From NCBI GenBank assembly GCA_001793945.1, contig MGIW01000003.1:1-56857 (forward strand): 56,857 nucleotides of DNA. The letters are read 5' to 3'. The notes beneath the pieces were generated by a model, which was not told where the DNA came from, made no database searches, and worked only from the letters and a program-made list of their open reading frames with translations. Positions 4,363-17,237 of this stretch are shown piece after piece (position 1 is the stretch's first letter; each line of letters begins with the position of its first letter). Position numbers and translations under genes: made by a program. The stretch is from Candidatus Wolfebacteria bacterium RIFOXYD12_FULL_48_21. GTDB lineage: Bacteria > Patescibacteriota > Minisyncoccia > UBA6257 > UBA9933.

Positions 4363-5265
4363 ATGATTACAGCTGCCAGAATTAAATCTCTCAAAAGGAT
4401 CATTTCTAAAAAATTGCATGTCGATATAATTGAAATTTCTTTCCTCGGAAAGGGCGCTTGCAGTAATATTTTTTCATGCAAAACGCGCACCGGACAATTG
4501 TATTGCTTAAAAGAAGAACGAAGCGATAAATTCGACACGGAAAGCAACGATATAGTAAAGGAGGCAAGATTAATCCAATTTTTAAACACGCAATCCATTG
4601 CGCTTATTCCAGAAGTAACATTTATCCTAAATAAGCCCAGGCTGTATTGCTATAAATACATACAGGGCAAACCCTTGAACACAAGATGGAATTCTCTATC
4701 GGAAAAAAATAAAGTGTCCATTATGAAAAGTATTGGAAAGTATCATGCCGAGCTATATAATAAGATCTCGATTGACGAAGCAGGGTTGGCAGGAGTACGA
4801 AAGGATGAGTCTGACTTTATTCATTCTATTTCAAATATTCTTCCTAAACTCAAATCGATAGATAAGAGCAATAGTCAACTTTACAAAAAGGCGCTGTGGA
4901 TGCAAAAATCCTACAGAAGGGTAACAGATGAACATCCCGTTTATGGATTTTTACATGGCGATCTTCATCAGGGAAACCTGCTCGTTAACCATGGCAAGCT
5001 TGCCGGCATTGTTGATTTTGGCAAATCTGCCATTGGCGATATACATAAAGATTTTAGCCATCACGCAAGGCATTATCCGGAGTATATTGATGTTCTTATT
5101 GATAGTTATAAATCCCATACTGGATTAAAATTATCAAAAGATAAAATAATCTTTTACGCATTTTTAAAGGACCTTGAAAAACTTACCTATCATATTGATA
5201 AGTATGCGACGCATAAAAAAAATATCGAAGCCAAAACTTCCTTATATGATACGCTACTATCTTGA
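4363..5265 (+). CDS. APH/choline-kinase-family phosphotransferase
   Basis: 300 aa. Catalytic loop and DFG-like motif FLHGDLHQGNLLVNHGKLAGIVDFGKSAIGD. Divergent from the NDK operon. Confidence 0.75.
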   Translation: MITAARIKSLKRIISKKLHVDIIEISFLGKGACSNIFSCKTRTGQLYCLKEERSDKFDTESNDIVKEARLIQFLNTQSIALIPEVTFILNKPRLYCYKYIQGKPLNTRWNSLSEKNKVSIMKSIGKYHAELYNKISIDEAGLAGVRKDESDFIHSISNILPKLKSIDKSNSQLYKKALWMQKSYRRVTDEHPVYGFLHGDLHQGNLLVNHGKLAGIVDFGKSAIGDIHKDFSHHARHYPEYIDVLIDSYKSHTGLKLSKDKIIFYAFLKDLEKLTYHIDKYATHKKNIEAKTSLYDTLLS

Positions 5266-5385
5266 ATAAACTTTCTCCCAAGCGCGCATCTGATATTTAT
5301 TGCAATAAAGGCCCCTTCATGTGAGCGACCCCTTTTAAAGAACTATTTTAAATAAATCTCCCGAGGGTAGGTGTATAAGGGATTC

Positions 5386-5533
5386 TAAAGAAACTCAGTT
5401 TTAAACCCTATCGCCTTATGCGCTGCTTTGATATCAGCTTCCCGCTTTGCCTTTGCTTCCTCTGTGTGATAGTCGGGATCAAATATCGCATCCAAACTCA
5501 CATCGAATTTACCCGACAATGTTTTCCAACAAC
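5386..5533 (-). pseudogene. orphan copy of the 3' end of the ThiF/E1-like gene
   Basis: Minus strand reads SGKFDVSLDAIFDPDYHTEEAKAKREADIKAAHKAIGF. It is near-identical to the C-terminus of the 8658-9794 product but has no upstream body. Its frame is offset by a 2-nt difference at the junction with the nitroreductase ORF. Confidence 0.65.
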
Positions 5534-6069
5534 AGTCGCTCGTTTAAGCTAATAATACTCGCCAGCTTACTCACCTCTTCGCGCCCGTCTGCCAGCCGTA
5601 TTTCCTCGCCACCCACCCCTCTCATCTCGCCAATGTTTTGCTTTTCCTCTTCCGTTAACGTGTATGCCTTATATGTCTTACGATTAGTCGCCCGCTCACG
5701 AATCGCCTTGAATAATCCATTTTCTTTTTTATCCGCTGTTCTTTCCAATCGTACCGTTGCGGTATGATCGCTTCGCCCTTGTTCGGGAAACATCGTTACC
5801 GTTGCTTCGTATCCAAAATGCTCAGCTATTATACTTATATTTTCGATCAATGCACCGTGGGCCAAAAAATCGCCTCTGTTCTTGAAATTAAACAAAGTAG
5901 CATCTCTGCCGACAAGATTATAAATATCGATCTCGTTTCCACGCACCTCAAACCGCCACGGCTGGGAATTATCCCCCGATGGTGCATTGATCGCTTCTTG
6001 TATTATTTTTCCGATCAGTTCTCGAGGAATCATTGTGGATATTATACAGGATTTTTGGGGTTTTGGCAT
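5509..6069 (-). CDS. nitroreductase-family protein (Acg-type N-terminal half, apparently truncated)
   Basis: 186 aa. INAPSGDNSQPWRFEV and RERATNRKTY motifs. The ORF ends exactly where the duplicated ThiF tail begins. Confidence 0.6.
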   Translation of the reverse strand: MPKPQKSCIISTMIPRELIGKIIQEAINAPSGDNSQPWRFEVRGNEIDIYNLVGRDATLFNFKNRGDFLAHGALIENISIIAEHFGYEATVTMFPEQGRSDHTATVRLERTADKKENGLFKAIRERATNRKTYKAYTLTEEEKQNIGEMRGVGGEEIRLADGREEVSKLASIISLNERLLLENIVG

Positions 6070-6192
6070 GGCATAGTCTGAGCGGGATGTAAAAAATAGC
6101 GACTATTGGCGCTATTCCCAAAATCGCCGTATACCTTTTGCACTTTACTACATTTGCTTGATTAAGTATAAAAATTGTATCATATAGGTACT

Positions 6193-6414
6193 ATGGAAAA
6201 TACTATGGAACAACATGCCCCAAAAGGATGGGCGCCCGATGTTTGGCAAAAATTCAATAAGAAGATTGAGGAAATGTCCGAAGAAGAACTCATTAAGGCA
6301 TTCCACGATCTTGGCCTTGATTTTCAAGAGCCAGAAAAATTAACAAAAGACGATATCATTGCTGTGGCGGATGAATTATACGAAAAAGATGTAAAGGAAT
6401 ACTTTAAAATATAA
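6193..6414 (+). CDS. small hypothetical protein (73 aa), paralog of 7184-7429
   Basis: ATG chosen over the upstream TTG. Shares a W..W..F....E.LS.EEL.......G..F pattern with the 81-aa minus-strand protein. Followed by a hairpin. Confidence 0.45.
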   Translation: MENTMEQHAPKGWAPDVWQKFNKKIEEMSEEELIKAFHDLGLDFQEPEKLTKDDIIAVADELYEKDVKEYFKI

Positions 6415-6428
6415 CCTTGCTAATAAAA

Positions 6429-6452
6429 ATGCCCTCGGAAATCCGAGGGCAT
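6429..6452. terminator. hairpin terminator between convergent small genes
   Basis: GCCCTCGG-AAAT-CCGAGGGC. A T-run follows on the minus strand (ATTTTTATT); the T-run on the plus strand is weaker. Confidence 0.6.
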
Positions 6453-6483
6453 TTGCGTAGCACGACAAGAATGCTTGCACTCT

Positions 6484-6657
6484 CTATTTTGAAGCCGGGA
6501 TGTGAAGCTTGTCGCTTTGATCTCCTTTGTCATCGTAAACGCGCACATCCCGATGCGGTTCCGGATGACTCTTGCTCGTATGATTGCTGCTCGGCATACT
6601 TGATGTGTTTGGACTTCTTTTCTCCCCTTCCTTTGGGTACCTATTATCCTTACTCAC
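6484..6657 (-). CDS. 57-aa His/Asp/Lys-rich small protein (GTG start), not in the ORF track
   Basis: AGAGGTG precedes the GTG. Product: VSKDNRYPKEGEKRSPNTSSMPSSNHTSKSHPEPHRDVRVYDDKGDQSDKLHIPASK. Resembles the 63-aa product of 6965-7156. Sits behind leader L1 and ahead of the terminator. Confidence 0.4.
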   Translation of the reverse strand: MSKDNRYPKEGEKRSPNTSSMPSSNHTSKSHPEPHRDVRVYDDKGDQSDKLHIPASK

Positions 6658-6794
6658 GGCATCACCTCTTTTGTGTTAAGCATCTTACGGGCCGATCATT
6701 CTTTTTGAATGCTCAATTAAGCATTGTGCGCCGGCAAAATAATTGTCGTGTTCTGAGCTTATTATAGGATATATATATATATATATATTGTCAA
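6658..6794 (-). promoter_or_regulatory. L leader copy 1 with (TA)10-spacer promoter
   Basis: TTGACA (6789-6794), 22-nt spacer made mostly of TA repeats, TATAAT (6761-6766). The conserved core follows: TTGCCGGCGCACAATGCTTAATTGAGCATTCAAAAAGAATGATCGGC. Confidence 0.55.
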
Positions 6795-6820
6795 GGGCTT
6801 GCAGACATCCACTTTTACCC

Positions 6821-6940
6821 CTCCTTCTCCCACCATTTGCCGTCTTTTTCGGAAAAGAACCGTATTATTTGTTCTGCGGAATATTCTTTCATGGCTGGCA
6901 TATTGCCCTTAGTATAGGGGATTTTTGTGTTTGGTGCAAA
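6821..6940 (-). repeat. R module copy 1 (promoter plus leaderless 28-codon sORF)
   Basis: Minus strand: TTGCAC, 17 nt, TATACT, 9 nt, ATG. The sORF at 6815-6901 encodes MPAMKEYSAEQIIRFFSEKDGKWWEKEG and then stops. Confidence 0.85.
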
Positions 6941-6942
6941 AA

Positions 6943-6962
6943 AGAGGCGCCTGCGCGCCTCT
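6943..6962 (-). terminator. rho-independent terminator abutting R copy 1
   Basis: AGAGGCGC-GCAG-GCGCCTCT then TTTTTT on the minus strand. The T-run runs into the TTGCAC -35 of R. Confidence 0.7.
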
Positions 6963-6964
6963 TG

Positions 6965-7156
6965 CTAATCGTCATCTTTCCTTCCGAAAAACCCGGCAAG
7001 GAAATCCATGAAGCTTTCGCTTTCACGAACTCCATGAGTCTCGCCCTCCTTTTTCCCGTCATCACCATAGTGATAGTAATCAACATGGCGATAGGGATGC
7101 CCGGAACTTTCGTGCGGCTTACTCGGCTCAGTCGTGTTCGGAGTATGCTTGCTCAT
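6965..7156 (-). CDS. 63-aa His/Tyr/Asp-rich small protein
   Basis: MSKHTPNTTEPSKPHESSGHPYRHVDYYHYGDDGKKEGETHG...FMDFLAGFFGRKDDD. AAGGAGG lies ~7 nt upstream. Terminator follows immediately. Confidence 0.55.
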   Translation of the reverse strand: MSKHTPNTTEPSKPHESSGHPYRHVDYYHYGDDGKKEGETHGVRESESFMDFLAGFFGRKDDD

Positions 7157-7183
7157 CGCTACCTCCTTTTCGTTGTTCTGCGT

Positions 7184-7429
7184 TTAAGATAACTGTCTCT
7201 CCGCTTCTTCTACTTCGTATACAAGAGCCTCCTTTCTTGTCGCCTCAAGCAATGCGCCGGCGATATGCTCCTTGGGCGTGTATCCCGGCTCAAACTTTAT
7301 GCCATGCTTTTCGCACAGCGTTGAAAGCGATTCGTCAGACAACTTTTCCAATCGCCCCTCGAATTCCAGCCACTCTTCCCACTTCCATCCGTTCATCTCT
7401 TTACCCGGCCCAAAAGTTTGTTCGGTCAT
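7184..7429 (-). CDS. 81-aa hypothetical protein
   Basis: AGGAGG RBS. The start ATG overlaps the stop of a 24-codon upstream sORF (ATGA). Paralog of 6193-6414. Confidence 0.55.
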   Translation of the reverse strand: MTEQTFGPGKEMNGWKWEEWLEFEGRLEKLSDESLSTLCEKHGIKFEPGYTPKEHIAGALLEATRKEALVYEVEEAERQLS

Positions 7430-7508
7430 ATCTTCCTCCTATTATGATGTATATTTTCTGCTACCAATATGTGCTTATTACGACCTTTTGTCAATTGCAT
7501 ATAGAACC

Positions 7509-7628
7509 CTCCTTCTCCCACCATTTGCCGTCTTTTTCGGAAAAGAACCGTATTATTTGTTCTGCGGAATATTCTTTCATGGCTGGCATATTGCCCTTAG
7601 TATAGGGGATTTTTGCGTTTGGTGCAAA
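7509..7628 (-). repeat. R module copy 2
   Basis: Same promoter and start as copy 1. The sORF at 7491-7589 reads on to ...EKEGSICN (32 aa). Confidence 0.85.
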
Positions 7629-7643
7629 AAATGGGCAATCCGC

Positions 7644-8285
7644 TTATCGCCTCCAAAACTGCCATTTCTTATCTTTCTTTTCCTTGCGCTTTTTTTCTCC
7701 TATTATCCTTGCTTCGTCTTTTACCTTCTTCTTTAAATCCTCCGTGCGATATTCTTTTTCCAAATCATGCGCCTCCACTTGAAATCCTTTGTTTTCAAGC
7801 ATGCCTTTTACCCGTTCAAGATGGTTCACGCCCACAATAAATGCAATATTTCGTACACTATCTTTCTTTCTTAAATATTCCTCCAGTCCCTGCACGAACG
7901 CCTTTTCTCTTTTCTCGGTCGACGGTTTTATCCGTATAGTTAGAAATCTTTGCATTTTTGCATCGACAAAAATATGCTTATCGCCATATTTTTCTTCAAG
8001 TATTGTTTTCCCGGAATATATATTCTTTTTCCACCCGTCACCCGGAATCTTGTCGTATGGGCCGCCTTCTTCCACAATAAGATCGGGATTTTCTTCTTCA
8101 CATAATTGCAATAATTTATCCCGTAGCGTTTTTAAGGATGCGTCGAATATCCCTAATAGCTCTTCGGAAAATCCCGCGACCCTCATTTTTTTGATATGCC
8201 GCTTGATATGCCCCTTTGCCTGTATGTGATGCACTACTCCAATCAATTTAATATGTATTTTTTTATAATCTATTTCCTTTGTCAT
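7644..8285 (-). CDS. Tiki/TraB/GumN-like protein with K/R/E-rich tail (copy 1)
   Basis: Start at MTKEIDYKK. IKLIGVVH (GxxH), PDLIVEEGG and FIVGVNHLERVKGMLENKGFQVE resemble the two GxxH motifs plus an acidic motif of the TraB/GumN/ChaN fold. About 85% identical to 16042-16713. Confidence 0.45.
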   Translation of the reverse strand: MTKEIDYKKIHIKLIGVVHHIQAKGHIKRHIKKMRVAGFSEELLGIFDASLKTLRDKLLQLCEEENPDLIVEEGGPYDKIPGDGWKKNIYSGKTILEEKYGDKHIFVDAKMQRFLTIRIKPSTEKREKAFVQGLEEYLRKKDSVRNIAFIVGVNHLERVKGMLENKGFQVEAHDLEKEYRTEDLKKKVKDEARIIGEKKRKEKKDKKWQFWRR

Positions 8286-8305
8286 ATTATTATTTAGCAT
8301 AAGAA

Positions 8306-8331
8306 AAGGGCTCGCGAAACGCGAGCCCTTT
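8306..8331 (-). terminator. intercistronic hairpin (attenuator-like)
   Basis: GGGCTCGCG-TTTC-GCGAGCCC followed by TTTTCTTAT on the minus strand. Lies between the acidic peptide gene and the TraB-like gene. Confidence 0.5.
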
Positions 8332-8347
8332 AGTATAGCGATGACGA

Positions 8348-8503
8348 TCAATCGTCGTCGTCCGGCTCATTCCCCGAAGTATCCGAGTTGCTTCGTGGAT
8401 CATCGTTTCCACACTCCTTCCACGCCGTTTCTTCCGCCTGATCATCGGACACATCAGGATACCCCTCGTCGTCATCCCCAAAAATAAAGTCGAACAGTCC
8501 CAT
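8348..8503 (-). CDS. 51-aa highly acidic peptide (copy 1)
   Basis: AAGGAGG then 7 nt then ATG. Product: MGLFDFIFGDDDEGYPDVSDDQAEETAWKECGNDDPRSNSDTSGNEPDDDD. The longer start in the ORF track lies inside the leader. Confidence 0.6.
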   Translation of the reverse strand: MGLFDFIFGDDDEGYPDVSDDQAEETAWKECGNDDPRSNSDTSGNEPDDDD

Positions 8504-8635
8504 GGCTAAGCCTCCTTTGTGCCAAGTATTCTGCGTGCCGATCATTCTTTTTGAATGCTCAATTAAGCATTGTGCGCCGGCAAAATAATTGTCGTGTTCT
8601 GATTTACTTTATACCCTATATATAACTCTCGTCAA
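8504..8635 (-). promoter_or_regulatory. L leader copy 2 with well-spaced promoter
   Basis: TTGACG (8630-8635), 16-nt spacer with only (TA)4, TATAAA (8608-8613). Same conserved leader core as the other L copies. Confidence 0.6.
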
Positions 8636-8657
8636 TCCCCTGTAATGTCTACCTGCA

Positions 8658-9794
8658 TCACTCGAATCCAATTGCTTTATGCACTTCTTTAATATCAGCT
8701 TCGCGCTTTGCCTTTGATTCCTCTGTGTGATAATCCGGATCAAATATCGCATCCAAACTTACATCGAATTTACCCGACAAAACCTTCTCTCCCAATGCCA
8801 ATCTCCTTACTATATAAGCGATCACCGGACCGCACATCGTCGCGGCATCACCCAACTGTGGCCATGAATACAATGTCTTCCCCACTTCCAAAATAGATTG
8901 CTGCATGCGCGGAACCACCATATACGGGCCGGCTATTTGCGTTGCCAATTTAGGCATGTCGGTCGGCGCCATGGTCTTTAATGTTTCCATTGAAATATCC
9001 CCCGCCGCGCCGTTAAACAGCTGCAATTCCGGATCAAGGTCATGTCGCTCTATATCAACGATGACGCCATCGCCATTGTCGGTCGCCATGATAAGCGGCA
9101 AGCCCTTCTTTTTTGCCGCTTCACGCAACATGATCTTCATCGGCAAGAAATCCACTTCCTCTATTACCACATCTGCGCCATCCAAAAACTCATCCATATT
9201 CTCAGAAGATACACCCTTGTCGTACATATGCACCGTACCATAGGGGTTCAGCTGTACAATATGACTCGCGACCAAATGCGCTTTGTTCTTGTTCAGCGCG
9301 GAGCAATCATACCGTAATCGGTTCAGGTTTGGGCCGGAAACCACATCCGCATCGGCTATTTTGATCGTCTTCGCGCCACCCATCATGGCAATCGTCAAGG
9401 CCGGATGACTACCCACGCTTAATCCGGCAATGGCAACCGTATAGTTATAAAATTTTTCCTGCTCCTCTTTGGTGATTAGGTTTTTATTGCGCGCAGTCCG
9501 CAACTCTTGATGCACCGCATCCGGCAAATAATGGATCAGATTTTTCGTATACGGAAAATAGAACCACTCCCCATCTTCTTCCATCGACTTGCCCGCCAAA
9601 TATTCTTTTTTAAATGCGGCACAGTCTTCCTTGTGCTCGGGAATGAACTTATATTTTGGATTTCGTACCTGAAAAAGTTCGTCGAGCAATGCATCGTACG
9701 CATCTATGGTCTCGATGATCTCAAACTTTTTCTTGAAATCTTCCAGCGACTCCGTCGCCTTATTCCACTGCATCGGTTTTATTTGCGTATCCAT
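8658..9794 (-). CDS. ThiF/E1-like adenylyltransferase (Rv1355c-type ThiF domain, no nitroreductase domain)
   Basis: 378 aa. LRTARNKNLITKEEQEKF, VAIAGLSVGSH (Rossmann), ADADVVSGPNLNRLRY, IMATDNGDGVIVDIERHDLDP and LYSWPQLGDAA. 16-nt overlap with the upstream PaaK-like gene. Confidence 0.7.
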   Translation of the reverse strand: MDTQIKPMQWNKATESLEDFKKKFEIIETIDAYDALLDELFQVRNPKYKFIPEHKEDCAAFKKEYLAGKSMEEDGEWFYFPYTKNLIHYLPDAVHQELRTARNKNLITKEEQEKFYNYTVAIAGLSVGSHPALTIAMMGGAKTIKIADADVVSGPNLNRLRYDCSALNKNKAHLVASHIVQLNPYGTVHMYDKGVSSENMDEFLDGADVVIEEVDFLPMKIMLREAAKKKGLPLIMATDNGDGVIVDIERHDLDPELQLFNGAAGDISMETLKTMAPTDMPKLATQIAGPYMVVPRMQQSILEVGKTLYSWPQLGDAATMCGPVIAYIVRRLALGEKVLSGKFDVSLDAIFDPDYHTEESKAKREADIKEVHKAIGFE

Positions 9795-11284
9795 TTTTGT
9801 TTTGTTCCGGGCTTAAAATGAGTTGGATGTTCTGCGGGCCATAGGCTTATCTTCGGCCGCGCGCGCTCTTTCAAGTAATTCGAAAGTTCCCTGAATTCCG
9901 AATTGTTTTCGCGCAAGAATTTGAATACTTCCTCCGTCAGGATGTCTGCCAGTTTTTTGCTTTCCTTTTTTCCTTTTTTCATCTCGATGTGTATTTCGAG
10001 ATATTGGTTCTGCGCGTCATCAAATGCCGTCATCATGGAAAACTTTCCGGTTACATATGGATGCAACGCATCCTTCAGAAGCACCTCGCGAATCGTCTCC
10101 GGATAGATCTGTAAGCCGTAAAGCGTAGTCGAAAAGTCATTTCGCTCATACACATAAACGAATGGCAGTTGTTGCTCATTCTTCAACTTTGCCCTCTTCA
10201 TTTCCTTGCCCCAGTCGATCCCCTGAATTTTAATGCACTCCATCATTTCGCCATACCCTACCACTCCGCCATTATCTCCGATCGCGTAGCGGACCAACGG
10301 GATAGCACTATTCCCCGTAAGCACCACCTCGCCGTCCGAAGCCTCAAATATGATTTGCAACGGATTATATTGCGCCAGCGTCGGCGTTTTTTTAATTTCC
10401 GAAAAAATATCTTCAAACAACCCCATGTTTTTCATCGCCAATCTTCGTACAAGGATCGCCGTTGGCGTTTCAAATGCCATCGCGCCGATATCCGCAGAGC
10501 CATAAATGCTCATGATGTCTTGAAACAGATTCTTGATCCCTGTTTTTTCCACAAGGTAATCCCTGAAGTTCTCGGTGTATGCCTCTGCTGCGGTCACTAT
10601 GCGCATGTTCAGTTTTTTAAAATCCACCCCGCGCGAACTTCCTTCATCAATAATATCCTTTACCATTGGCGGATATCCCGCCAAAATAACCTGCCCGTAC
10701 AGCGGGGCTATATTTTTTAATGCTTTGAATATCTCTTCCTTATTTATTCCCGGCGTTATGATAGAAACAGGATATTTCCCCCGGTCCGCGGCAATCTCAA
10801 ACGCCTTATAGGTGATCAATCCACCGATCCAAATCCCCATCCCAAATGCCACTATGACCAATGTCGGCTTTTCAACACCAAAAGAACTGTTGCGCAAAAA
10901 AAATTCATGAATGAGTGCGGCATTTTTATCCGCCTCTTCTGTTCGGGGAAAATAAAACGGCTCCCCCGTAGAACCCGAAGTAGCCGTAAAAACAAGTGGT
11001 TTATTCAAATTTCCATCCCAGCACAATTTTTCCAATGGATACTGACGCAAATAATTCTTCTTGCTCGTCAATGGCACACGCTGAAAATCTTCCCAGGTCA
11101 CAATTTTATTATGATCCTTGATCCCGTTCTTTTTCAAAAAATCCTTGTAGGCCGGCACGCGCTGTGCGGCATCATGAAACAGCGCGAGTGCGCGCTTTCG
11201 TCCCTCCTTCTCCCACCATTTGCCGTCTTTTTCGGAAAAGAACCGTATTATTTGTTCTGCGGAATATTCTTTCATGGCTGGCAT
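9779..11284 (-). CDS. PaaK/coenzyme-F390-synthetase-like adenylate-forming enzyme
   Basis: 501 aa. FTATSGSTGEPFYFPRT matches the AMP-binding TSG(S/T)TG motif. The first 28 codons are supplied by R copy 3. Confidence 0.7.
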   Translation of the reverse strand: MPAMKEYSAEQIIRFFSEKDGKWWEKEGRKRALALFHDAAQRVPAYKDFLKKNGIKDHNKIVTWEDFQRVPLTSKKNYLRQYPLEKLCWDGNLNKPLVFTATSGSTGEPFYFPRTEEADKNAALIHEFFLRNSSFGVEKPTLVIVAFGMGIWIGGLITYKAFEIAADRGKYPVSIITPGINKEEIFKALKNIAPLYGQVILAGYPPMVKDIIDEGSSRGVDFKKLNMRIVTAAEAYTENFRDYLVEKTGIKNLFQDIMSIYGSADIGAMAFETPTAILVRRLAMKNMGLFEDIFSEIKKTPTLAQYNPLQIIFEASDGEVVLTGNSAIPLVRYAIGDNGGVVGYGEMMECIKIQGIDWGKEMKRAKLKNEQQLPFVYVYERNDFSTTLYGLQIYPETIREVLLKDALHPYVTGKFSMMTAFDDAQNQYLEIHIEMKKGKKESKKLADILTEEVFKFLRENNSEFRELSNYLKERARPKISLWPAEHPTHFKPGTKQKWIRK

Positions 11285-11323
11285 ATTGCCCTTAGTATAG
11301 GGGATTTTTGCGTTTGGTGCAAA
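11204..11323 (-). repeat. R module copy 3 (the only copy fused in frame to a long gene)
   Basis: Identical promoter and start. The reading frame continues as ...WWEKEGRKRALALFHDAAQRVPAYKDFL. Confidence 0.85.
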
Positions 11324-11341
11324 TATGTGGTTTTCAATTAT

Positions 11342-11370
11342 TTGACATTATTTTTATTTCGTATGATAAT
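11342..11370 (+). promoter_or_regulatory. sigma70-type promoter for radical SAM gene A
   Basis: TTGACA, 17 nt, GATAAT. About 50 nt upstream of the AAGGAG RBS and ATG at 11423. Divergent from R copy 3. Confidence 0.5.
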
Positions 11371-11422
11371 CTTTTCAGTATAGGAGTCTTTAACAATCAC
11401 ATATTCCATAAGGAGCTTTGTC

Positions 11423-12541
11423 ATGCAAAATTCTACACTCCCTGTTCTGCCCCAAGCCGTCATGCCTACTATTAAGGTCGTGTCGAGCACATGCAATCTT
11501 CGCTGCCACTATTGCTATTACAATGCATTAGACCAATCCCGCCCGAATCCAATGAGCACTAAGACTGTCACGAATTTGATCAAAAAAACGATTGAGTTTG
11601 TGCAAGACGACTATGTTCACTTCACATGGCACGGCGGAGAGCCTCTCTTGGCCGGAATGAATTTTTATGAACATATCCTCCGTATCCAAGAGCTGTACGG
11701 CAAGAAGAAAACAATCATCAACGGCATCCAAACCAATGCGACTCTTGTCAGTGACCGGTGGGCGAGCTTCTTCAAGAAACACGATTTCCGTGTTGGGGTA
11801 AGTATTGACGGCCCACCTATGATCCAAAATGCGCATCGAGTACTACCGTCACAAGGAGGAAGTTCTCGATTAGTACAACAAGGATTGCGTGCGCTCCAGC
11901 GCCATGACATCTACCCGCCAGCGATAGCGGTCGTTACCCGAGAATCCCTCGGCAATGCTCGGAAGATCTTCCAGTATTTCCTAAGGAACCATGTCCGTAG
12001 CATACACATCAAAGAATGCTACGAGATAGATCCTTCAACAGGGAGGCCCACTGCGCTTTCTGTTATGCCGGATGAATTCACTGCTTTCCTGATCGAAATA
12101 TTTGACATGTGGTTCGATCTGGATGACCCAAGTATTTCCATCAGAAATCTCGAGCAATTAGTTCGTGGCCTCGTCGGCGGTGAGCCATCCCTCTGCGAAG
12201 CCACGGGTAAATGCTGGCTCTTCCCCGTTGTTGAAGCAGATGGAACAGTTGGCGCATGCGATAGCTTCCCTATCCGTGACTATCACTTCGGCAACATAAA
12301 TGAAATGAGTTGGGGCGATCTCTTTGCAAGTGCCGGCAATATTCGATTCTCTGAGAATATCCGGCAAAATGAAGATAGGTGTCGCTCGTGCGAATGGTTT
12401 TCCATATGCCACGGGTGCTGCTTGCGTCATGCGCATTCCCCCGTTACTCACGAGTGGCACCATAATCTTTTCTGTACATCAAAAAAGCGCCTATTCGGCC
12501 ACATCAAGGCACGCATAGACGCAATTCATGCAGGGGGCTAG
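11423..12541 (+). CDS. radical SAM/SPASM maturase, anSME-like (A)
   Basis: CNLRCHYC (CX3CX2C), FTWHGGEPLL, GIQTNATLV, VGVSIDGP. C-terminal SPASM cysteines: CEATGKC...GACDSF...CRSCEWFSICHGCC. Confidence 0.8.
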   Translation: MQNSTLPVLPQAVMPTIKVVSSTCNLRCHYCYYNALDQSRPNPMSTKTVTNLIKKTIEFVQDDYVHFTWHGGEPLLAGMNFYEHILRIQELYGKKKTIINGIQTNATLVSDRWASFFKKHDFRVGVSIDGPPMIQNAHRVLPSQGGSSRLVQQGLRALQRHDIYPPAIAVVTRESLGNARKIFQYFLRNHVRSIHIKECYEIDPSTGRPTALSVMPDEFTAFLIEIFDMWFDLDDPSISIRNLEQLVRGLVGGEPSLCEATGKCWLFPVVEADGTVGACDSFPIRDYHFGNINEMSWGDLFASAGNIRFSENIRQNEDRCRSCEWFSICHGCCLRHAHSPVTHEWHHNLFCTSKKRLFGHIKARIDAIHAGG

Positions 12542-13563
12542 TAAGCCCCCTTTTTTATTACACTGATAACTCGTGTCATCTCGTCAATAAATTTCTTGTC
12601 GATTGCACGCTTCTTTTCAAAATAATATTGTGATAATGGATACATTTGCCATATCACATAATAGTACAGCCCATCATAAGAGATGATTTTCTTTTCTTTT
12701 ATCGCTTCCATATCATACAACAGCACATCGATCCACCCTAAATTTCTCAATAGCGGCGAGAAATGCTTTGCATGCGCTTGGTAGATGTACCCACTCGGAG
12801 CAATCCCCCCTACGACAATCTCGGTAAGAATATTTTTCTTGGACATTTTTGGCTGAACCAGATCTAATAAATCCATGCCGTCCCGTGATGCTGCCGCGCC
12901 AATGATCTTACTCAATTTTCTGTTGTTATCGAGAAGCACATGCACCATCTCATGCGCCATAACACCCAATGCGGTTTCCATATATTCATCAGAGTTATCT
13001 TCTATCGCTGCTTCCAATGTAATATGACCGCATCCCAAATTCGCACCGCCAGAGGCGCTTTTGTTGTTTATCGGACTCGGTATGATGTGCACGACAAAAT
13101 CCTCCAGCTTTTTATCGGGCTTGATCGCTCGCTCCATCGCCGCCATAAGCTTTATTCCATTTTCCGACTCCGCAATTTTCTTCAACGATCGACCCCATGC
13201 CTTGATCCCCTTCTCATCCCATATTTTTTTAAATCGTGGCTCGAACATGCGAAACACGCTCCGAATCTTTTTATACTCACCTTCCATTACATTTTTTTCT
13301 ACCTCCTCCCATGCTTCTTTCTCGGAGTTAAGAAAAAAATATTGTCCAAGATACACGAGTTTGTTCTTTTTATATTCAAACCCATATTTCCGCATAACAT
13401 CCCCAAAAACATTGATTGCTTCGCTTTCCTTTTCCGTCAGTACCCCCGTTTGCTTTATCCATTCTTTGTTATATTCAGTTCTGCATGAAAAATGCCACTC
13501 GGCAAGGTTCGAGATAAAGAAAAATAAATTTGAAATCCTTGAATGGACTATTTTATACTTCAT
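12538..13563 (-). CDS. HExxH putative zinc metallopeptidase (paralog of 22529-23383)
   Basis: Start at MKYKIVHSR. The longer ORF would overlap the precursor gene. Motif VMAHEMVHVLL. Shares SRxSNxxFF and ExxVxGxxPxGY blocks with the other HExxH protein. Stop overlaps the rSAM stop by 4 nt (convergent). Confidence 0.5.
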   Translation of the reverse strand: MKYKIVHSRISNLFFFISNLAEWHFSCRTEYNKEWIKQTGVLTEKESEAINVFGDVMRKYGFEYKKNKLVYLGQYFFLNSEKEAWEEVEKNVMEGEYKKIRSVFRMFEPRFKKIWDEKGIKAWGRSLKKIAESENGIKLMAAMERAIKPDKKLEDFVVHIIPSPINNKSASGGANLGCGHITLEAAIEDNSDEYMETALGVMAHEMVHVLLDNNRKLSKIIGAAASRDGMDLLDLVQPKMSKKNILTEIVVGGIAPSGYIYQAHAKHFSPLLRNLGWIDVLLYDMEAIKEKKIISYDGLYYYVIWQMYPLSQYYFEKKRAIDKKFIDEMTRVISVIKKGAY

Positions 13564-13600
13564 GATATTCAGTATACCAAAATGATTCGCACTATAAAAT

Positions 13601-13624
13601 AAAGGCTCACATCCGTGAGCCTTT
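13601..13624 (-). terminator. hairpin after the precursor-like sORF (partial terminator)
   Basis: AAAGGCTCAC-GGAT-GTGAGCCTTT then ATTTTAT on the minus strand. Lies between the 62-aa ORF and the HExxH gene. Confidence 0.5.
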
Positions 13625-13654
13625 ATACTATTCTCGACAACAGAACACCTTCCC

Positions 13655-13843
13655 TTAGCCAACAGACTTACTGTGGCCATTGCTGCTGTGGTTGTTGTAG
13701 CTCGGCCCATCATGATGGCAATACAGCCACTGATCACGCGCAACCCTCTCGATTGCACCGAGTACTAAGGCGCCTCGAGGCACCTGCGCACACCCATGAT
13801 TTCCACTTCCCAAACTCTTTTTGGGTACTACCGTTGTCTGCAT
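13655..13843 (-). CDS. 62-aa candidate RiPP precursor (A)
   Basis: AGGAGG then 7 nt then ATG. Product: MQTTVVPKKSLGSGNHGCAQVPRGALVLGAIERVARDQWLYCHHDGPSYNNHSSNGHSKSVG. Own promoter: TTGACA (13980-13985), 17 nt, CACAAT. Confidence 0.5.
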   Translation of the reverse strand: MQTTVVPKKSLGSGNHGCAQVPRGALVLGAIERVARDQWLYCHHDGPSYNNHSSNGHSKSVG

Positions 13844-13998
13844 AATACATCCTCCTTAGGCCAGTTGAATGAATCTTGCTTCTGTTGTTGATACTACTAC
13901 GCAATCAAATTCGATCAATGCGAATCGAATTGCATTTGATTAAATTACTAAATTAAATTGTGTGCTACTTCTACCGAATTGTCAAATGCCCACAAATA

Positions 13999-14117
13999 TC
14001 CTTCTCCCACCATTTGCCGTCTTTTTCGGAAAAGAACCGTATTATTTGCTCTGCGGAATAGTCTTTCATGGCTGGCATAGTGCCATTAGTATAGGGTATT
14101 TTTGGGGTTGGTGCAAA
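13999..14117 (-). repeat. R module copy 4 (most diverged)
   Basis: TTGCAC, 17 nt, ATACTA-type -10. The sORF at 13971-14078 encodes MPAMKDYSAEQIIRFFSEKDGKWWEKDICGHLTIR. The terminal AAGGAGG is mutated to AAGGAT. Confidence 0.8.
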
Positions 14118-14134
14118 AAAAAATAAAGGGATCC

Positions 14135-14623
14135 TTATCCTTTATTGATACCTGCTTTATTCATACGCTCTACCTGCGCTTTTAATTCAGCCAATGGCGG
14201 CACATTGAACCGAGCCCTTTCTTCGTCGGTCATCCCCTTCTTAATAGGGGCGAGCGCCCACTTGCTCTTGGCGCTTTTTTTAAAGAATTGCGTGCCAAAT
14301 TTTTGTTTCTTTCCTTGTTTTATCAATAGTCGATCGGTTCCTGCAGCATGGAGCCATTTCGCTTTTTGATACCCTTTTTTTATGCTTTGTTCGGAAAGCT
14401 TTATTGCCGTTTTATAATCAGCCAACAATTGCCCATGATGGAATATCATTGCTGCAATATAGAAATCTTTACCGGTAATTACCGTTCCCTCCTTTAGCAT
14501 TCTTTTTATAGTATTCTTGCGCTCGACATCTTTTTTTTCGACTACCGAAAAATCGCCGCTTGATCCGATTGCCATACGATCAGCTTGATCTTCTTTAAAC
14601 AATTTTTCCAGATCCTTGTTCAT
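14135..14623 (-). CDS. hypothetical protein (162 aa)
   Basis: Clean ORF with a T-run hairpin at its 3' end (14113-14145). I recognise no diagnostic motif. Confidence 0.5.
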   Translation of the reverse strand: MNKDLEKLFKEDQADRMAIGSSGDFSVVEKKDVERKNTIKRMLKEGTVITGKDFYIAAMIFHHGQLLADYKTAIKLSEQSIKKGYQKAKWLHAAGTDRLLIKQGKKQKFGTQFFKKSAKSKWALAPIKKGMTDEERARFNVPPLAELKAQVERMNKAGINKG

Positions 14624-14701
14624 AAAAAAATATCTACACCCTGCGCTGTGTAGCTATTATAAACTCAGACATCATTACGCACAAGCAAGTTCCCCGTGTA
14701 T

Positions 14702-15451
14702 TTAATCTTTATACTTAATAAACTTAAGCGTTTTTTCAAAAAGCTCCTTTTGGGCTTTTTTGCCGGAAAATAAATGATTGGTCTTTTTTAGTACATAATA
14801 TTTTGACTTGGCCTTGTCTGGTGTTGCACGATAATATTTTTTTGCATCTGTGTCCGTACTTCCTTCCGCAGTAACAATACATGCGTTTTTATGCAAGGAA
14901 TGGAATATGCCCACGGAATCGACGCTGCCAAGTTCTTTATAAAATTTTCCATTGATAGCTATTTTATTACCCTGATTTTTTAATGTTTTCTCCGAATCAA
15001 TAGCAAAGATCTTGTCCATTGCCTTTTTAGACCAGGGCAAGCGACTCTGATCCCATAAAACAAGCTTGGTATTTTTTAAATATTTTTTATTATTAAATAA
15101 AAATAATATTGACATAATTGCGCCAAAACTATGACCGACAAAAATAAACTCGAGATACTTTTTTGGCAATTTTTCTATAACATTTTTTAACTCACTGCTA
15201 TAAAAAGATAGATCGAGATCTTTTATATCAAGTGCATTTCTTTTTTGAATATCTTCATTGCAGAGATTTATACGAAGGGTATCAAAGCCGCTCTTACGAA
15301 AAATCTCCGTCGCATTAATAAAAAGCGGCAAGTCCCGTCCACCAGACAGTCCGCTTAAAAAAATAACGAGTCTTGAGTTGCTCTTTTTCGCAAAAAGTTT
15401 CCCATAAAGGAACCTGCCGGGGATTTTTTTTGATTCAATTTTTATCTCCAT
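14702..15451 (-). CDS. alpha/beta hydrolase
   Basis: Start at MEIKIESKK. Nucleophile elbow FVGHSFGA (GxSxG). Typical length of ~250 aa. Confidence 0.65.
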   Translation of the reverse strand: MEIKIESKKIPGRFLYGKLFAKKSNSRLVIFLSGLSGGRDLPLFINATEIFRKSGFDTLRINLCNEDIQKRNALDIKDLDLSFYSSELKNVIEKLPKKYLEFIFVGHSFGAIMSILFLFNNKKYLKNTKLVLWDQSRLPWSKKAMDKIFAIDSEKTLKNQGNKIAINGKFYKELGSVDSVGIFHSLHKNACIVTAEGSTDTDAKKYYRATPDKAKSKYYVLKKTNHLFSGKKAQKELFEKTLKFIKYKD

Positions 15452-15467
15452 GCTTTTAATTAAAAGG

Positions 15468-15502
15468 CCCCACCACAAAATATATTATCGTATGTGGTGG
15501 GG
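15468..15502 (-). terminator. 10-bp perfect hairpin between the DUF397-like gene and the hydrolase gene
   Basis: CCCCACCACA with a 15-nt loop and TGTGGTGGGG. The minus-strand 3' side is only moderately T-rich, so this could be an attenuator or a processing site. Confidence 0.35.
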
Positions 15503-15529
15503 CATTACACTGGAGCCCATGCTCAGCTT

Positions 15530-15742
15530 CTAAGGCAGATCGAACTCGCCCTTTTTTACGCCCTGGATAAAAGCATCCCACTCCGCATGGGTGAATGACA
15601 GAGTCGGGCTCTGCGGGTCTTTGGTATCTCTTACATCGACCGTTTCGCCGATTTTGACAGCGACACATGTTTTGATGTAAAGATATCTGGTAATTGAAGA
15701 AGTGAGAAATCCTTCCTCTTCGTGCGGATTCCGCTTAGACAT
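15530..15742 (-). CDS. DUF397-like small protein
   Basis: 70 aa. CVAVKIGETVDVRDTKDPQSPTLSFTHAEWDAFIQGVKKGEFDL closely follows the DUF397 pattern (CVEVA...VRDSKDP..P.L.F...EW.AF..GVK.GEFD). AAAGGAG RBS. Confidence 0.6.
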   Translation of the reverse strand: MSKRNPHEEEGFLTSSITRYLYIKTCVAVKIGETVDVRDTKDPQSPTLSFTHAEWDAFIQGVKKGEFDLP

Positions 15743-15879
15743 AATCAGCATCTCCTTTTCAATTTTTACTAACTATCTTGCGTGCCGATCATTCTTTTTG
15801 AATGCTCAATTAAGCATTGTGCGCCGGCAAAATAACTATCTTGTTCTGAGCTGATTATATGATATATATATATTGTCAA
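15743..15879 (-). promoter_or_regulatory. L leader copy 3 with (TA)6-spacer promoter
   Basis: TTGACA (15874-15879), 14-nt spacer, TATAAT (15854-15859). Conserved leader core identical to the other copies. Confidence 0.55.
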
Positions 15880-15905
15880 GGGCTTGCAGACATCCACTTT
15901 TACCC

Positions 15906-16025
15906 CTCCTTCTCCCACCATTTGCCGTCTTTTTCGGAAAAGAACCGTATTATTTGTTCTGCGGAATATTCTTTCATGGCTGGCATATTGCCCTTAGTAT
16001 AGGGGATTTTTGCGTTTGGTGCAAA
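15906..16025 (-). repeat. R module copy 5
   Basis: The sORF at 15900-15986 gives the same 28-aa product as copy 1. The flank through the L promoter is also shared with copy 1. Confidence 0.85.
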
Positions 16026-16041
16026 AATACGGGCAATTCGC

Positions 16042-16713
16042 TTATCGCCTCCAAAGCTGCCATTTTGGCCTTTTCTTTTCCTTCTTTTCTTTGCGCTTTT
16101 TTTCTCTCATTTTTAGCGCATTTTCTCTCATTCTCTGCGCATCTTCCCTTATTTTCCTTCTTAGATCGTCTGTATAATATTTATCACTCAAATTATGCGT
16201 CTCCACTTGAAATCCTTTATTTTCGAGCATAATTTTTACCCGCTCGAGATGGTTCACGCCCACAATAAATGCAACATTCCGCACATCACTTTTCTTCCTT
16301 AAATACTCCTCCAGCCCCCGTACGAACGCCTTTTCCCTTTTCTCGGTCGACGGTTTTATCCGTATAGTTAGGAATCTTTGCATTTTTGCATCGACAAAAA
16401 TATGCTTATCGCCATATTTTTCTTCAAGTATTGTTTTCCCGGAATATATATTCTTTTTCCACCGATCGGCTGGGGTTTTATCGTATGCCCCACCCTCCTC
16501 TACCACAAGGTCGGGATTTTCTTCTTCGCATAATTGCAACAATTCATTACGCAACGCTTTCAAAGTTATATCTAATACGCCCAGTAGGTCTTCGGAAAAT
16601 CCCTTGGCGCGCAACTTTTGAATATGCCACTTGATATGCCCGTTTGCTTGCACATAATGAACCAACCCGATCAATCTAATGTGTATTTTTTTGTATTCTA
16701 TTTCCTTTGTCAT
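16042..16713 (-). CDS. Tiki/TraB/GumN-like protein with K/R/E-rich tail (copy 2)
   Basis: 223 aa. IRLIGLVH, PDLVVEEGG and FIVGVNHLERVKIMLENKGFQVE. Paralog of 7644-8285. Confidence 0.45.
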   Translation of the reverse strand: MTKEIEYKKIHIRLIGLVHYVQANGHIKWHIQKLRAKGFSEDLLGVLDITLKALRNELLQLCEEENPDLVVEEGGAYDKTPADRWKKNIYSGKTILEEKYGDKHIFVDAKMQRFLTIRIKPSTEKREKAFVRGLEEYLRKKSDVRNVAFIVGVNHLERVKIMLENKGFQVETHNLSDKYYTDDLRRKIREDAQRMRENALKMREKKRKEKKEKKRPKWQLWRR

Positions 16714-16735
16714 ATTATTTATTCAGTATAAGAAT

Positions 16736-16759
16736 AGGGCTCGCGAAACGCGAGCCCTA
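16736..16759 (-). terminator. intercistronic hairpin (copy of 8306-8331)
   Basis: AGGGCTCGCG-TTTC-GCGAGCCCT. The downstream T-run is weaker than in copy 1. Confidence 0.4.
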
Positions 16760-16777
16760 TTGGAATCAATGCGGCGA

Positions 16778-16930
16778 TCAATCGTCTTCGCCCGGCACAT
16801 TTCCTGAGGTATCCGAGTTATCCTCAGGAGAACCCCCGGCCTCCTTCCACGCCGCTTCTTCCGCCTGATCGTCAGTCGCATCAGGATACCCCTCGTCGTC
16901 ATCCCCAAAAATGAAGTCGAACAATCCCAT
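16778..16930 (-). CDS. 50-aa highly acidic peptide (copy 2), not in the ORF track in this frame
   Basis: AGAGGTG then ATG. Product: MGLFDFIFGDDDEGYPDATDDQAEEAAWKEAGGSPEDNSDTSGNVPGEDD. The listed 16723-16956 ORF is a different frame. Confidence 0.6.
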   Translation of the reverse strand: MGLFDFIFGDDDEGYPDATDDQAEEAAWKEAGGSPEDNSDTSGNVPGEDD

Positions 16931-17065
16931 AGTAGCACCTCTTTTGTGTTAAGCATCTTACGGGCCGATCATTCTTTTTGAATGCTCAATTAAGCATTGT
17001 GCGCCGGCAAAATAACTATCTTGTTCTGAGCTGATTATATGATATATATATATAGCTCTTGTCAA
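16931..17065 (-). promoter_or_regulatory. L leader copy 4 with 20-nt TA-rich spacer promoter
   Basis: TTGACA (17060-17065), 20-nt spacer, TATAAT (17034-17039). The 5' part matches L3 and the 3' part matches L1. Confidence 0.55.
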
Positions 17066-17090
17066 TACCCTTACCAGCGCGCTTTTACCC

Positions 17091-17210: not shown

Positions 17211-17212
17211 AA

Positions 17213-17230: not shown

Positions 17231-17237
17231 TTTGTTT

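What the first reader, a model, noticed from the sequence alone, without database searches (positions are those of the whole stretch)
6761..6794. (TA)n tract forms the -35/-10 spacer of the L promoters, with four different lengths: candidate phase-variable promoters
Every L copy is driven by a TTGAC(A/G) ... TATAA(T/A) pair. The spacer between them is largely a TA dinucleotide repeat whose length differs by copy:
- 22 bp at 6767-6788 (TA x10)
- 16 bp at 8614-8629 (TA x4)
- 14 bp at 15860-15873 (TA x6)
- 20 bp at 17040-17059

Only the 16-bp version has near-optimal sigma70 spacing. Dinucleotide slippage in a promoter spacer is the established on/off mechanism of the Haemophilus influenzae hifA/hifB fimbrial promoter. 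Here the same design would switch individual small-peptide cassettes on or off independently.
Basis: partly seen in the sequence, partly recalled or inferred. Interest (0 to 1): 0.7.

Follow-up and report, generated by a model that had tools for sequence, protein, structure and literature searches.

The report
TA microsatellite inside duplicated promoter spacers
Four copies of one promoter-plus-leader unit in an uncultivated groundwater bacterium carry a TA repeat of different length between their -35 and -10 boxes; the repeat clearly changes over evolutionary time, but rapid on/off switching is not shown.

Summary
On the minus strand there are four TTGAC(A/G)...TATAA(T/A) pairs with spacers of 22, 16, 14 and 20 bp made largely of TA repeats.

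Each pair begins a duplicated unit, L. L consists of a promoter, a conserved structured 57-nt leader RNA and a small gene. Six divergent related contigs keep both hexamers and the leader, so the hexamers are very probably a real promoter.

Among variants with matching flanks the spacer differs by whole TA units: (TA)4, 5, 5, 6 and 6, giving 16, 18 and 20 bp. One relative carries a G10 run in the same spacer. The tract is therefore a slippage hotspot.

The evidence for fast switching is thin:
- Every locus has the same consensus length in all assemblies that do not show a block swap.
- Tracts of 4 to 6.5 units show no variants in the three to five samples examined per tract.
- Only the (TA)10 tract is polymorphic, with TA9 and TA10 at about 1:1 in one sample of six.
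- Three of the four L copies sit behind a second promoter (R) with no terminator between them. The fourth lies inside an operon.
- No RNA data map to the region.

Verdict: a mutable promoter "tuning knob". Phase variation is possible for the (TA)10 copy but unproven.

The parts
6761..6794 (-). L1 promoter. -35 TTGACA at 6789-6794; 22-bp spacer at 6767-6788 containing (AT)10 at 6769-6788; -10 TATAAT at 6761-6766. An alternative -10, TATCCT at 6766-6771, lies 17 bp from the -35.
   Evidence: A TA9 variant appears in one sample.
8608..8635 (-). L2 promoter. -35 TTGACG at 8630-8635; 16-bp spacer AGAGT(TA)4GGG at 8614-8629; -10 TATAAA at 8608-8613. It lies downstream of the ThiF-like gene with no R unit directly upstream.
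   Evidence: All nine assemblies of this strain, window included, give the same spacer; three contigs of a divergent strain also have 16 bp.
15854..15879 (-). L3 promoter. -35 TTGACA at 15874-15879; 14-bp spacer (AT)6CA at 15860-15873; -10 TATAAT at 15854-15859.
   Evidence: No length variants in the five samples examined.
17034..17065 (-). L4 promoter. -35 TTGACA at 17060-17065; 20-bp spacer AGAGC(TA)6TCA at 17040-17059; -10 TATAAT at 17034-17039.
   Evidence: No length variants in the five samples examined.
6683..6739 (-). Conserved 57-nt structured leader RNA of L1. It has an outer stem UUUUGCC / GC.CG.AA and an inner hairpin GAnCAUUC-N5-GAAUGAUC. The same element lies at 8529-8585, 15776-15832 and 16956-17012. 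It always starts 21-22 nt after the -10.
   Evidence: No Rfam family matches.
6484..6657 (-). 57-aa hydrophilic small protein driven by L1 (GTG start), followed by a terminator-like hairpin.
   Evidence: No Pfam or NCBIfam hit.
8348..8503 (-). 51-aa acidic peptide (MGLFDFIFGDDD...NSDTSGNEPDDDD) driven by L2. This is the ancestral partner gene of the L unit. A 213-aa gene follows at 7644-8285.
   Evidence: Relatives keep the order peptide then 209-223-aa gene.
15530..15751 (-). DUF397 small protein (70-73 aa) driven by L3.
   Evidence: PF04149, E = 1.2e-12.
16778..16930 (-). 50-aa acidic peptide, a paralogue of the L2 peptide, driven by L4. A 223-aa gene follows at 16042-16713.
6777..6942 (-). 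R unit, copy 1 of 6. The others are at 7465-7630, 11160-11325, 13954-14119, 15862-16027 and 17047-17212. Each holds a TTGCAC-17-TATACT promoter plus the first 28 codons (MPAMKEYSAEQIIRFFSEKDGKWWEKEG) of the PaaK-like ligase gene. Only copy 3 continues into the full gene (9779-11284). Copies 1, 5 and 6 abut L1, L3 and L4 with no terminator between.

Best explanation
**What L is.** L is a sigma-70-type promoter fused to a structured 5' leader. Its original job is to drive a small acidic peptide gene that lies next to a ThiF-like/PaaK-like ligase operon. In this genome the unit has been duplicated four times. Three copies were placed behind copies of a second promoter unit, R.

**What the TA tract does.** The spacer between the -35 and -10 boxes contains a TA microsatellite that gains and loses whole TA units by replication slippage. 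Paralogous copies and orthologous copies in related lineages have therefore come to have spacers of 14, 16, 18, 20 and 22 bp. By the usual rule for sigma-70 spacing, this gives each copy a different and mostly reduced intrinsic promoter strength.

**How fast it changes.** The tract acts as a mutational tuning knob on evolutionary time scales. Only the (TA)10 copy is long enough to be unstable within a population, and it shows a TA9/TA10 polymorphism. Upstream promoters read through into every L copy, so tract length would modulate expression of the small genes rather than switch it fully on or off.

**Shown:** the anatomy, conservation of the hexamers and the leader, the series of TA-unit alleles, and one within-sample polymorphism.

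**Inferred:** that the hexamers are used, that spacer length changes promoter strength, and that R transcripts read through.
For: - **Sites and coordinates:** four sites at exact coordinates.
- **Unit boundary:** the L unit starts exactly at TTGAC in five different upstream contexts.
- **Conservation:** TTGAC and TAT are invariant across 12 variants, including contigs L029, L031, L032, L034, L035 and L036. The neighbouring protein there is only 53-59% identical.
- **Leader:** a leader structure starts a fixed 21-22 nt after the -10. It shows 94.9% paired cells against 31-46% in slid controls, and 5 pairs with changes on both sides.
- **TA-unit series with matching flanks:** AGAGT(TA)4GGG in the window and L004; AGAGT(TA)6GGG in L001; AGAAG(TA)5GGG in L035; AGAAG(TA)6GGG in L031; AAAGT(TA)5GGG in L029.
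- **Polymorphism:** TA9 and TA10 unitigs at depth 4.1 and 4.5 in sample S2.
- **Stable short tracts:** no variants at tracts of 6.5 units or fewer.
- **Read-through:** no terminator-like site between R and L, but one directly upstream of R copies 2, 5 and 6 by scan and copy 1 by eye.
- **Specificity:** TA tracts of 6 or more units occur only in L promoters within the window.
Against: - No transcription start sites or RNA reads are available. Use of the hexamers, and the effect of spacer length, rest on E. coli-type rules applied to an unknown organism.
- Five of the thirteen distinct variants have 20-22-bp spacers, including L031, which has no R unit upstream. That is odd if spacing matters and the promoters are needed. 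It could mean the organism tolerates long spacers, or that these are captured OFF states of a true switch.
- Only assembler contigs could be examined, not raw reads, and contigs drop rare variants. Low-frequency heterogeneity at the shorter tracts cannot be excluded.
Confidence: 0.55

Rival explanations
1. **True contingency loci.** High-frequency, reversible TA slippage in the spacer switches individual L promoters between ON lengths (about 16-18 bp) and OFF lengths (14, 20, 22 bp). This would create subpopulations that express different small-protein cassettes, as in the hifA/hifB fimbrial promoter of Haemophilus influenzae.
For: - The architecture is identical in kind to hif, where a (TA)9-11 tract lies between -35 and -10 (PMC2651432).
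- The (AT)10 tract falls within the hif length range.
- TA9 and TA10 coexist at roughly 1:1 in one sample. Five other samples at depth 5.6-30 show no stutter branch, which argues against a PCR artefact.
- Orthologous promoters sit at TA4, TA5 and TA6, straddling the optimum.
- A different repeat, G10, occupies the same spacer in relative L034.
- Long TA tracts are confined to these promoters.
Against: - Three of the four tracts have 4 to 6.5 units and show no variant in the four or five samples examined per tract. A (TA)6 tract in a co-occurring strain is also uniform at depth 13-33.
- The consensus length at each locus is the same in all assemblies that are not block-swapped.
- Both alleles observed at L1 (22 and 20 bp) are OFF lengths relative to TATAAT.
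- R or operon read-through would blunt any OFF state.
- Relatives L032 and L036 have non-repetitive or interrupted spacers, so the repeat is dispensable.
- The target genes are small hydrophilic proteins with no predicted surface role.
Confidence: 0.27
2. **The hexamers are not the operative promoter in this genome.** Under this reading the small genes are transcribed from the upstream R promoters, or from the ligase-ThiF operon for L2. The TA tract is then neutral, slippage-prone sequence inside a long 5' UTR, and its length has no regulatory consequence.
For: - R has a canonical 17-bp spacing (TTGCAC-17-TATACT). By scan, a terminator-like hairpin lies directly 5' of R copies 2, 5 and 6, and by eye 5' of copy 1; none is found 3' of any R.
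- The R-fused copies have the most aberrant spacers (14, 20 and 22 bp), as expected if constraint is relaxed.
- No RNA evidence exists for any start site.
Against: - Both hexamers are strictly conserved in contigs that lack R, while the spacer sequence diverges completely.
- The duplicated unit always begins precisely at TTGAC.
- The leader structure keeps a fixed distance from the -10.
- These points show the promoter is functional at least ancestrally and in the L2 context.
Confidence: 0.15
3. **Assembly or sequencing artefact.** Under this reading the differing TA lengths are errors of short-read assembly in low-complexity, repeated sequence.
For: - The R and L repeats do confuse assemblers. 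At the L1 and L4 loci some assemblies (L005, L007, L016, L018) carry the whole 14-bp L3-type block with its linked SNPs, and gene order differs between contigs.
Against: - Each of the four tract variants is recovered identically as k=31 unitigs in up to six samples and in many independent assemblies.
- The tracts (at most 20 nt) are shorter than k, so unitigs span them directly.
Confidence: 0.03

Closest known systems
Haemophilus influenzae hifA/hifB fimbrial promoter, (TA)9-11 spacer phase variation (van Ham et al. 1993, as summarised in PMC2651432)
   Same: A TA dinucleotide repeat lies between the -35 and -10 hexamers, so each unit gained or lost changes the spacer by 2 bp. L1 has 10 units, as hif does.
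   Different: - hif is a single pair of overlapping divergent promoters that controls surface fimbriae in a host-adapted pathogen, and its switching has been shown experimentally.
- Here the promoters face one way and exist in four copies. Most tracts are short (4 to 6.5 units).
- They drive small cytoplasmic-looking proteins in a groundwater bacterium and have a second promoter upstream.
- Switching has not been demonstrated.
Homopolymer spacer tracts in other bacteria: Neisseria meningitidis porA, opc and fetA (poly-G/poly-C) and Mycoplasma hyorhinis vlp (poly-A). This comparison is from my own knowledge.
   Same: A simple repeat in the promoter spacer tunes or switches transcription. Relative L034 has a G10 run in the same spacer of the same promoter family.
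   Different: Those are mononucleotide tracts with graded or on/off effects on surface antigens, measured in culture. The G10 run here is seen in a single contig and has not been studied further.
Non-switching short TA tract at hif in H. influenzae strain R2866, (TA)4ATTA (PMC2651432)
   Same: This shows that the same promoter position can hold a short or interrupted TA tract that is not regarded as phase variable. It resembles L2 with (TA)4 and relative L036 with an interrupted tract.
   Different: None of substance. It serves as the cautionary comparator.

Membership tests
Phase variation by a simple repeat in the promoter spacer (hifA/hifB type) | The repeat lies between the -35 and -10 hexamers of a promoter | tested here: met
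   Searches give the positions. The hexamers are conserved across 12 variants while the spacer varies. The transcription start itself has not been mapped.
Phase variation by a simple repeat in the promoter spacer (hifA/hifB type) | The tract is long enough for high-frequency slippage (hif has 9-11 TA units; genome surveys use 5 or more units as the threshold, PMC2651432) | tested here: inconclusive
   L1 has 10 units and meets it. L3 (6) and L4 (6.5) are borderline. L2 (4) is below the threshold.
Phase variation by a simple repeat in the promoter spacer (hifA/hifB type) | Tract length is heterogeneous within a population | tested here: inconclusive
   TA9 and TA10 occur at depths 4.1 and 4.5 at L1 in one sample of six. 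No variant is seen at L2, L3, L4 or at the (TA)6 tract of the second strain. Only assembler contigs were available, and these hide rare variants.
Phase variation by a simple repeat in the promoter spacer (hifA/hifB type) | Changes in tract length switch transcription on and off reversibly | not testable with these tools
   No RNA maps to the region in the metatranscriptomes of the same study. The organism is uncultivated.
Phase variation by a simple repeat in the promoter spacer (hifA/hifB type) | The variable promoter is the main driver of the gene, so an OFF length silences it | tested here: not met
   L1, L3 and L4 lie 25-30 nt downstream of an R promoter unit with no terminator-like site between them. 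L2 lies inside the ligase-ThiF operon. This rests on sequence prediction only.
Phase variation by a simple repeat in the promoter spacer (hifA/hifB type) | hif-specific: one repeat is shared by two overlapping divergent promoters | tested here: not met
   All L and R units and their genes are on the minus strand. No divergent gene lies next to them.
Canonical sigma-70 promoter | -35 and -10 hexamers separated by 16-19 bp | tested here: inconclusive
   L2 meets it at 16 bp. L1 meets it only through TTGACA-17-TATCCT. L3 (14 bp) and L4 (20 bp) do not. Five of the six related contigs have 18-19 bp, as do several other promoter-like sites in the window (17-18 bp).
Known RNA families in Rfam 15, tested for the L leader | A match at or near a family's gathering score | tested here: not met
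   The whole-window scan finds only tmRNA. A permissive scan of 6450-6960 gives a single 17-bit hit, on the opposite strand, to a family whose gathering score is 100 bits.

The most novel reading that the evidence does not exclude
A conserved promoter-plus-leader cassette for a small acidic peptide carries interchangeable simple repeats in its spacer: (TA)n in most lineages and G10 in one. In this reading the repeats work as true contingency switches in uncultivated, free-living groundwater bacteria. In this genome the cassette has been copied in front of several unrelated small genes, so each could be switched stochastically and independently. That would take promoter-spacer phase variation, so far known in host-adapted pathogens and mycoplasmas, into environmental bacteria. 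It would also tie it to a new structured leader RNA.
Probability: 0.2. Interest if true: 0.65.

Novelty: new member of a known kind. Interest (0 to 1): 0.4.

Why it matters
Simple repeats in promoter spacers are textbook switches in pathogens. Whether free-living or uncultivated bacteria use them is largely unexplored.

This locus offers a natural allelic series. One promoter is seen with spacers of 14, 16, 18, 20 and 22 bp, which could be tested directly with reporters.

The same unit contains an uncatalogued, covariation-supported leader RNA. It also drives a conserved acidic peptide of unknown function that sits beside ThiF-like, PaaK-like and nitroreductase genes.

If switching were shown, it would mean bet-hedging on the expression of small proteins in an aquifer bacterium. 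If not, the locus is still a clear example of microsatellite drift tuning duplicated promoters.

Tried and rejected
1. **Species-representative genomes (genome-contig collection).** An exact 41-mer from the L core and a protein-guided scan with the 213/223-aa neighbouring protein both found no relatives. The organism could therefore not be named. It is known only from groundwater and sediment metagenomes. The longest contig carrying these proteins is 893 kb.

2. **Metatranscriptomes of the same study.** Nothing maps to 5000-20000 apart from one unrelated 32-nt match, so there is no information on transcription starts.

3. **Raw reads.** None were available. All runs are held as Logan contigs, so rare length variants cannot be counted.

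5. **The L core as a coding sequence.** I considered whether its 100% conservation reflects an open frame (...SSEQDSYFAGAQCLIEHSKRMIG). I rejected this. There is no start codon on an L-initiated transcript. The changes in L001 and L004 fall as compensatory pairs in a hairpin (C:G to U:A; a G-A mismatch to U-G or U:A) plus loop changes.

6. **A frame switch in an upstream ORF.** A GTG-initiated ORF with a good Shine-Dalgarno sequence crosses the TA tract in L1 and L3, so the tract could in principle shift its frame. I left this as untested speculation. L4, L2 and all relatives lack that ORF.

7. **\"Copies without R keep the optimal spacing.\"** I rejected this pattern after finding a 20-bp spacer in L031, which has no R unit upstream.

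8. **The 14-bp block at the L1 and L4 loci in some assemblies.** This is a whole-block replacement with linked SNPs. It reflects either gene conversion or an assembler switching path through the repeats, not slippage.

Full report
**1. The observation**

All relevant features are on the minus strand. A search for TTGACR-N12-24-TATAAW finds exactly four sites, against 0.44 expected from shuffles:

| Copy | Site | Spacer | Spacer sequence |
|---|---|---|---|
| L1 | 6761-6794 | 22 bp | (AT)10CC |
| L2 | 8608-8635 | 16 bp | AGAGT(TA)4GGG |
| L3 | 15854-15879 | 14 bp | (AT)6CA |
| L4 | 17034-17065 | 20 bp | AGAGC(TA)6TCA |

Tandem Repeats Finder reports the (AT)10 tract at 6769-6788. TA tracts of 6 or more units occur only at these promoters in the 56.9-kb window.

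**2. What the units are**

*The L unit.* The four sites begin a roughly 110-nt repeat, L (family D4, alignment). Downstream of the -10 lies a 45-nt core that is 100% identical in all four copies. A Shine-Dalgarno sequence and a small gene follow:
- a 57-aa hydrophilic protein (6484-6657);
- two paralogous acidic peptides of 50 and 51 aa (8348-8503 and 16778-16930);
- a DUF397 protein (15530-15751).

*The R unit.* Three L copies (L1, L3 and L4) lie immediately behind a second repeat, R, which has six copies (family D1, alignment). R consists of a TTGCAC-17-TATACT promoter plus the first 28 codons of a PaaK-like ligase gene. Only the copy at 11160-11325 continues into the full 501-aa gene (9779-11284).

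*Terminators.* The terminator scan places a terminator-like hairpin directly upstream of R copies 2, 5 and 6. R copy 1 has a similar GC-rich hairpin plus T-run that I read by eye in the sequence. None lies between R and L.

*L2.* L2 sits downstream of the ThiF-like gene (8658-9794) inside the ligase-ThiF operon.

*Source.* The window comes from an uncultivated bacterium found in groundwater metagenomes. It carries a tmRNA gene and housekeeping genes. It has no relative among species-representative genomes.

**3. Are the hexamers a real promoter?**

Homologues of the 213/223-aa gene that follows the acidic peptide (53-59% identity) led to six related contigs. In each of them the peptide gene is preceded by the same unit.

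TTGAC and TAT(AAA) are invariant or nearly so in an alignment of 12 variants. The spacer, by contrast, ranges from TA repeats to unrelated sequence.

In the window and its close strains the unit begins exactly at TTGAC in five different upstream contexts. A conserved leader begins a fixed 21-22 nt after the -10.

This is good comparative evidence for a functional promoter, at least ancestrally and in contexts without R. There is no direct evidence of transcription: the metatranscriptomes of the same study contain nothing from this region.

**4. The leader**

RNAalifold predicts a 57-nt structure with an outer stem UUUUGCC...GC.CGCAAAA and an inner hairpin. Counting pairs on the alignment gives 94.9% paired cells, against 31-46% when the partners are slid. 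Five pairs show changes on both sides, and 0-1 of 500 shuffles reach the observed counts.

A U-G pair in L001 is compatible only with the minus (sense) strand. No Rfam family matches. L is therefore a promoter plus a structured 5' UTR.

**5. Does the TA tract vary?**

*Between lineages: yes, by whole units with matching flanks.*

| Spacer sequence | Spacer | Where found |
|---|---|---|
| AGAGT(TA)4GGG | 16 bp | window and strain L004 |
| AGAGT(TA)6GGG | 20 bp | co-occurring strain L001, also in sediment runs |
| AGAAG(TA)5GGG | 18 bp | L035 |
| AGAAG(TA)6GGG | 20 bp | L031 |
| AAAGT(TA)5GGG | 18 bp | L029 |

Other relatives differ in kind. L036 has an interrupted tract (18 bp). L032 has no repeat (18 bp). 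L034 has a G10 run (19 bp to TATTCT).

*Between assemblies of the same locus: no pure TA-unit differences.*
- L1 is (AT)10 in nine assemblies, window included.
- L2 is 16 bp in nine assemblies of this strain and in three of a divergent strain.
- L3 is 14 bp in four.
- L4 is 20 bp in four.
- Where assemblies disagree (L005, L007, L016 and L018), the whole L3-type block with its linked SNPs replaces the resident block. This is gene conversion or an assembler path switch, not slippage.

*Within samples: one variant only.* Only Logan contigs could be examined.
- At L1, sample S2 shows a bubble: a 44-nt unitig with TA10 (depth 4.5) and a 42-nt unitig with TA9 (depth 4.1).
- Five other samples give a single unbranched 80-nt unitig at depth 5.6-30.
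- No insertion or deletion is seen at L2, L3 or L4 in the four or five samples examined for each, at depths up to about 50.
- None is seen at the (TA)6 tract of the second strain at depth 13-33.

**6. Consequences for promoter function**

These consequences are inferred from sigma-70 rules. Non-repeat relatives and other promoter-like sites in the window use 17-19 bp. Spacers of 16 and 18 bp should therefore be active, and 14, 20 and 22 bp weak.

L1 is a special case. At (AT)10 the sequence offers TTGACA-17-TATCCT, so the dominant allele may be active through an alternative -10.

R promoters, or the operon, read into every L copy. The tract can therefore at most modulate expression, not silence it.

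**7. Verdict**

The architecture matches the known promoter-spacer class, for example the hifA/hifB (TA)9-11 tract (PMC2651432). The tract is demonstrably mutable on evolutionary time scales, and at the 10-unit copy it is polymorphic within one population.

The evidence falls short of phase variation for four reasons:
- the short tracts are stable;
- each locus has one consensus length;
- upstream promoters read through;
- there are no expression data.

I rate the readings as follows:
- an evolutionary tuning knob with possible population-level instability at L1: 0.55;
- true contingency switching: about 0.27;
- irrelevance of the hexamers in this genome: about 0.15.

Novelty: a new member of a known kind. 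The structured leader and the acidic peptide family are side findings worth following up.

Noticed in passing
window 6683-6739, 8529-8585, 15776-15832, 16956-17012 (minus strand); also L029, L031, L032, L034, L035, L036: A conserved 57-nt structured leader RNA lies between the L promoter and the small genes. It has covariation support (94.9% paired cells against 31-46% in slid controls; 5 pairs changed on both sides) and matches no Rfam family. It may be a new cis-regulatory motif.
   Followed up: partly
window 6777-6942, 7465-7630, 11160-11325, 13954-14119, 15862-16027, 17047-17212 (minus strand): There are six copies of R: a promoter plus the first 28 codons of the PaaK-like ligase gene. About 120 nt are nearly invariant, including third codon positions. 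Five copies end as a 28-35-aa mini-ORF in front of unrelated genes. The start codon lies only about 9 nt after the -10, so the mRNA is nearly leaderless.
   Followed up: partly
L034 307-337: In a related contig the same promoter spacer holds a G10 homopolymer in place of TA repeats (TTGACA-AACACTTGC-G10-TATTCT). This is a second kind of simple repeat at the same position.
   Followed up: no
L031 3813-3945: The acidic peptide gene of this relative has a C7 run that puts the conserved C-terminus (NSDTSGNVPDDDD) out of frame. This is either a sequencing error or a coding-region homopolymer frameshift.
   Followed up: no
window 8348-8503 and 16778-16930; L032, L034, L035, L036: A conserved family of acidic peptides of 42-51 aa (MG[LIF][FW]..LFG.DD...AW...NS[DN]TSGN[VE]P..DD*). 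Each is followed by a 209-223-aa protein with a faint TraB/PrgY/GumN signal. ThiF-like, PaaK-like ligase and nitroreductase genes are often nearby. The function is unknown.
   Followed up: partly
window 8658-9794 and 5509-6069: The ThiF-like protein matches the N-terminal half of the mycobacterial Rv1355c family. The 186-aa nitroreductase matches the C-terminal half of that family and also the Acg/Rv3131 family. The pair looks like a split version of one protein. Window 5404-5519 is a 90% copy of the 3' end of the ThiF-like gene.
   Followed up: no
L005, L007, L014, L016, L018 compared with window 6400-17200: Independent assemblies differ in which promoter block precedes a given gene and in which gene lies upstream of an R copy. 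The R and L repeats either drive real recombination or gene conversion, or cause chimeric assemblies.
   Followed up: partly
window 22218-54157: Many REP-like palindromes of the form ATTCCC-N8-GGGAAT (for example TGGATTCCCGCCTTCGCGGGAATGACA, 8 copies). Arrays of 7-nt tandem repeats (GGTATAA, GGTATGA, TATAGGG) flank intergenic regions.
   Followed up: no
window 36509-36850 (+): A tmRNA gene (Rfam RF00023, 114.7 bits). This confirms that the window is bacterial chromosomal sequence.
   Followed up: no
window 17208-17485 and 20411-20688: A 278-nt direct repeat (97% identical) covers a short response-regulator receiver gene (83 aa). The two copies flank a radical SAM/SPASM peptide maturase gene (18898-20388).
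   Followed up: no
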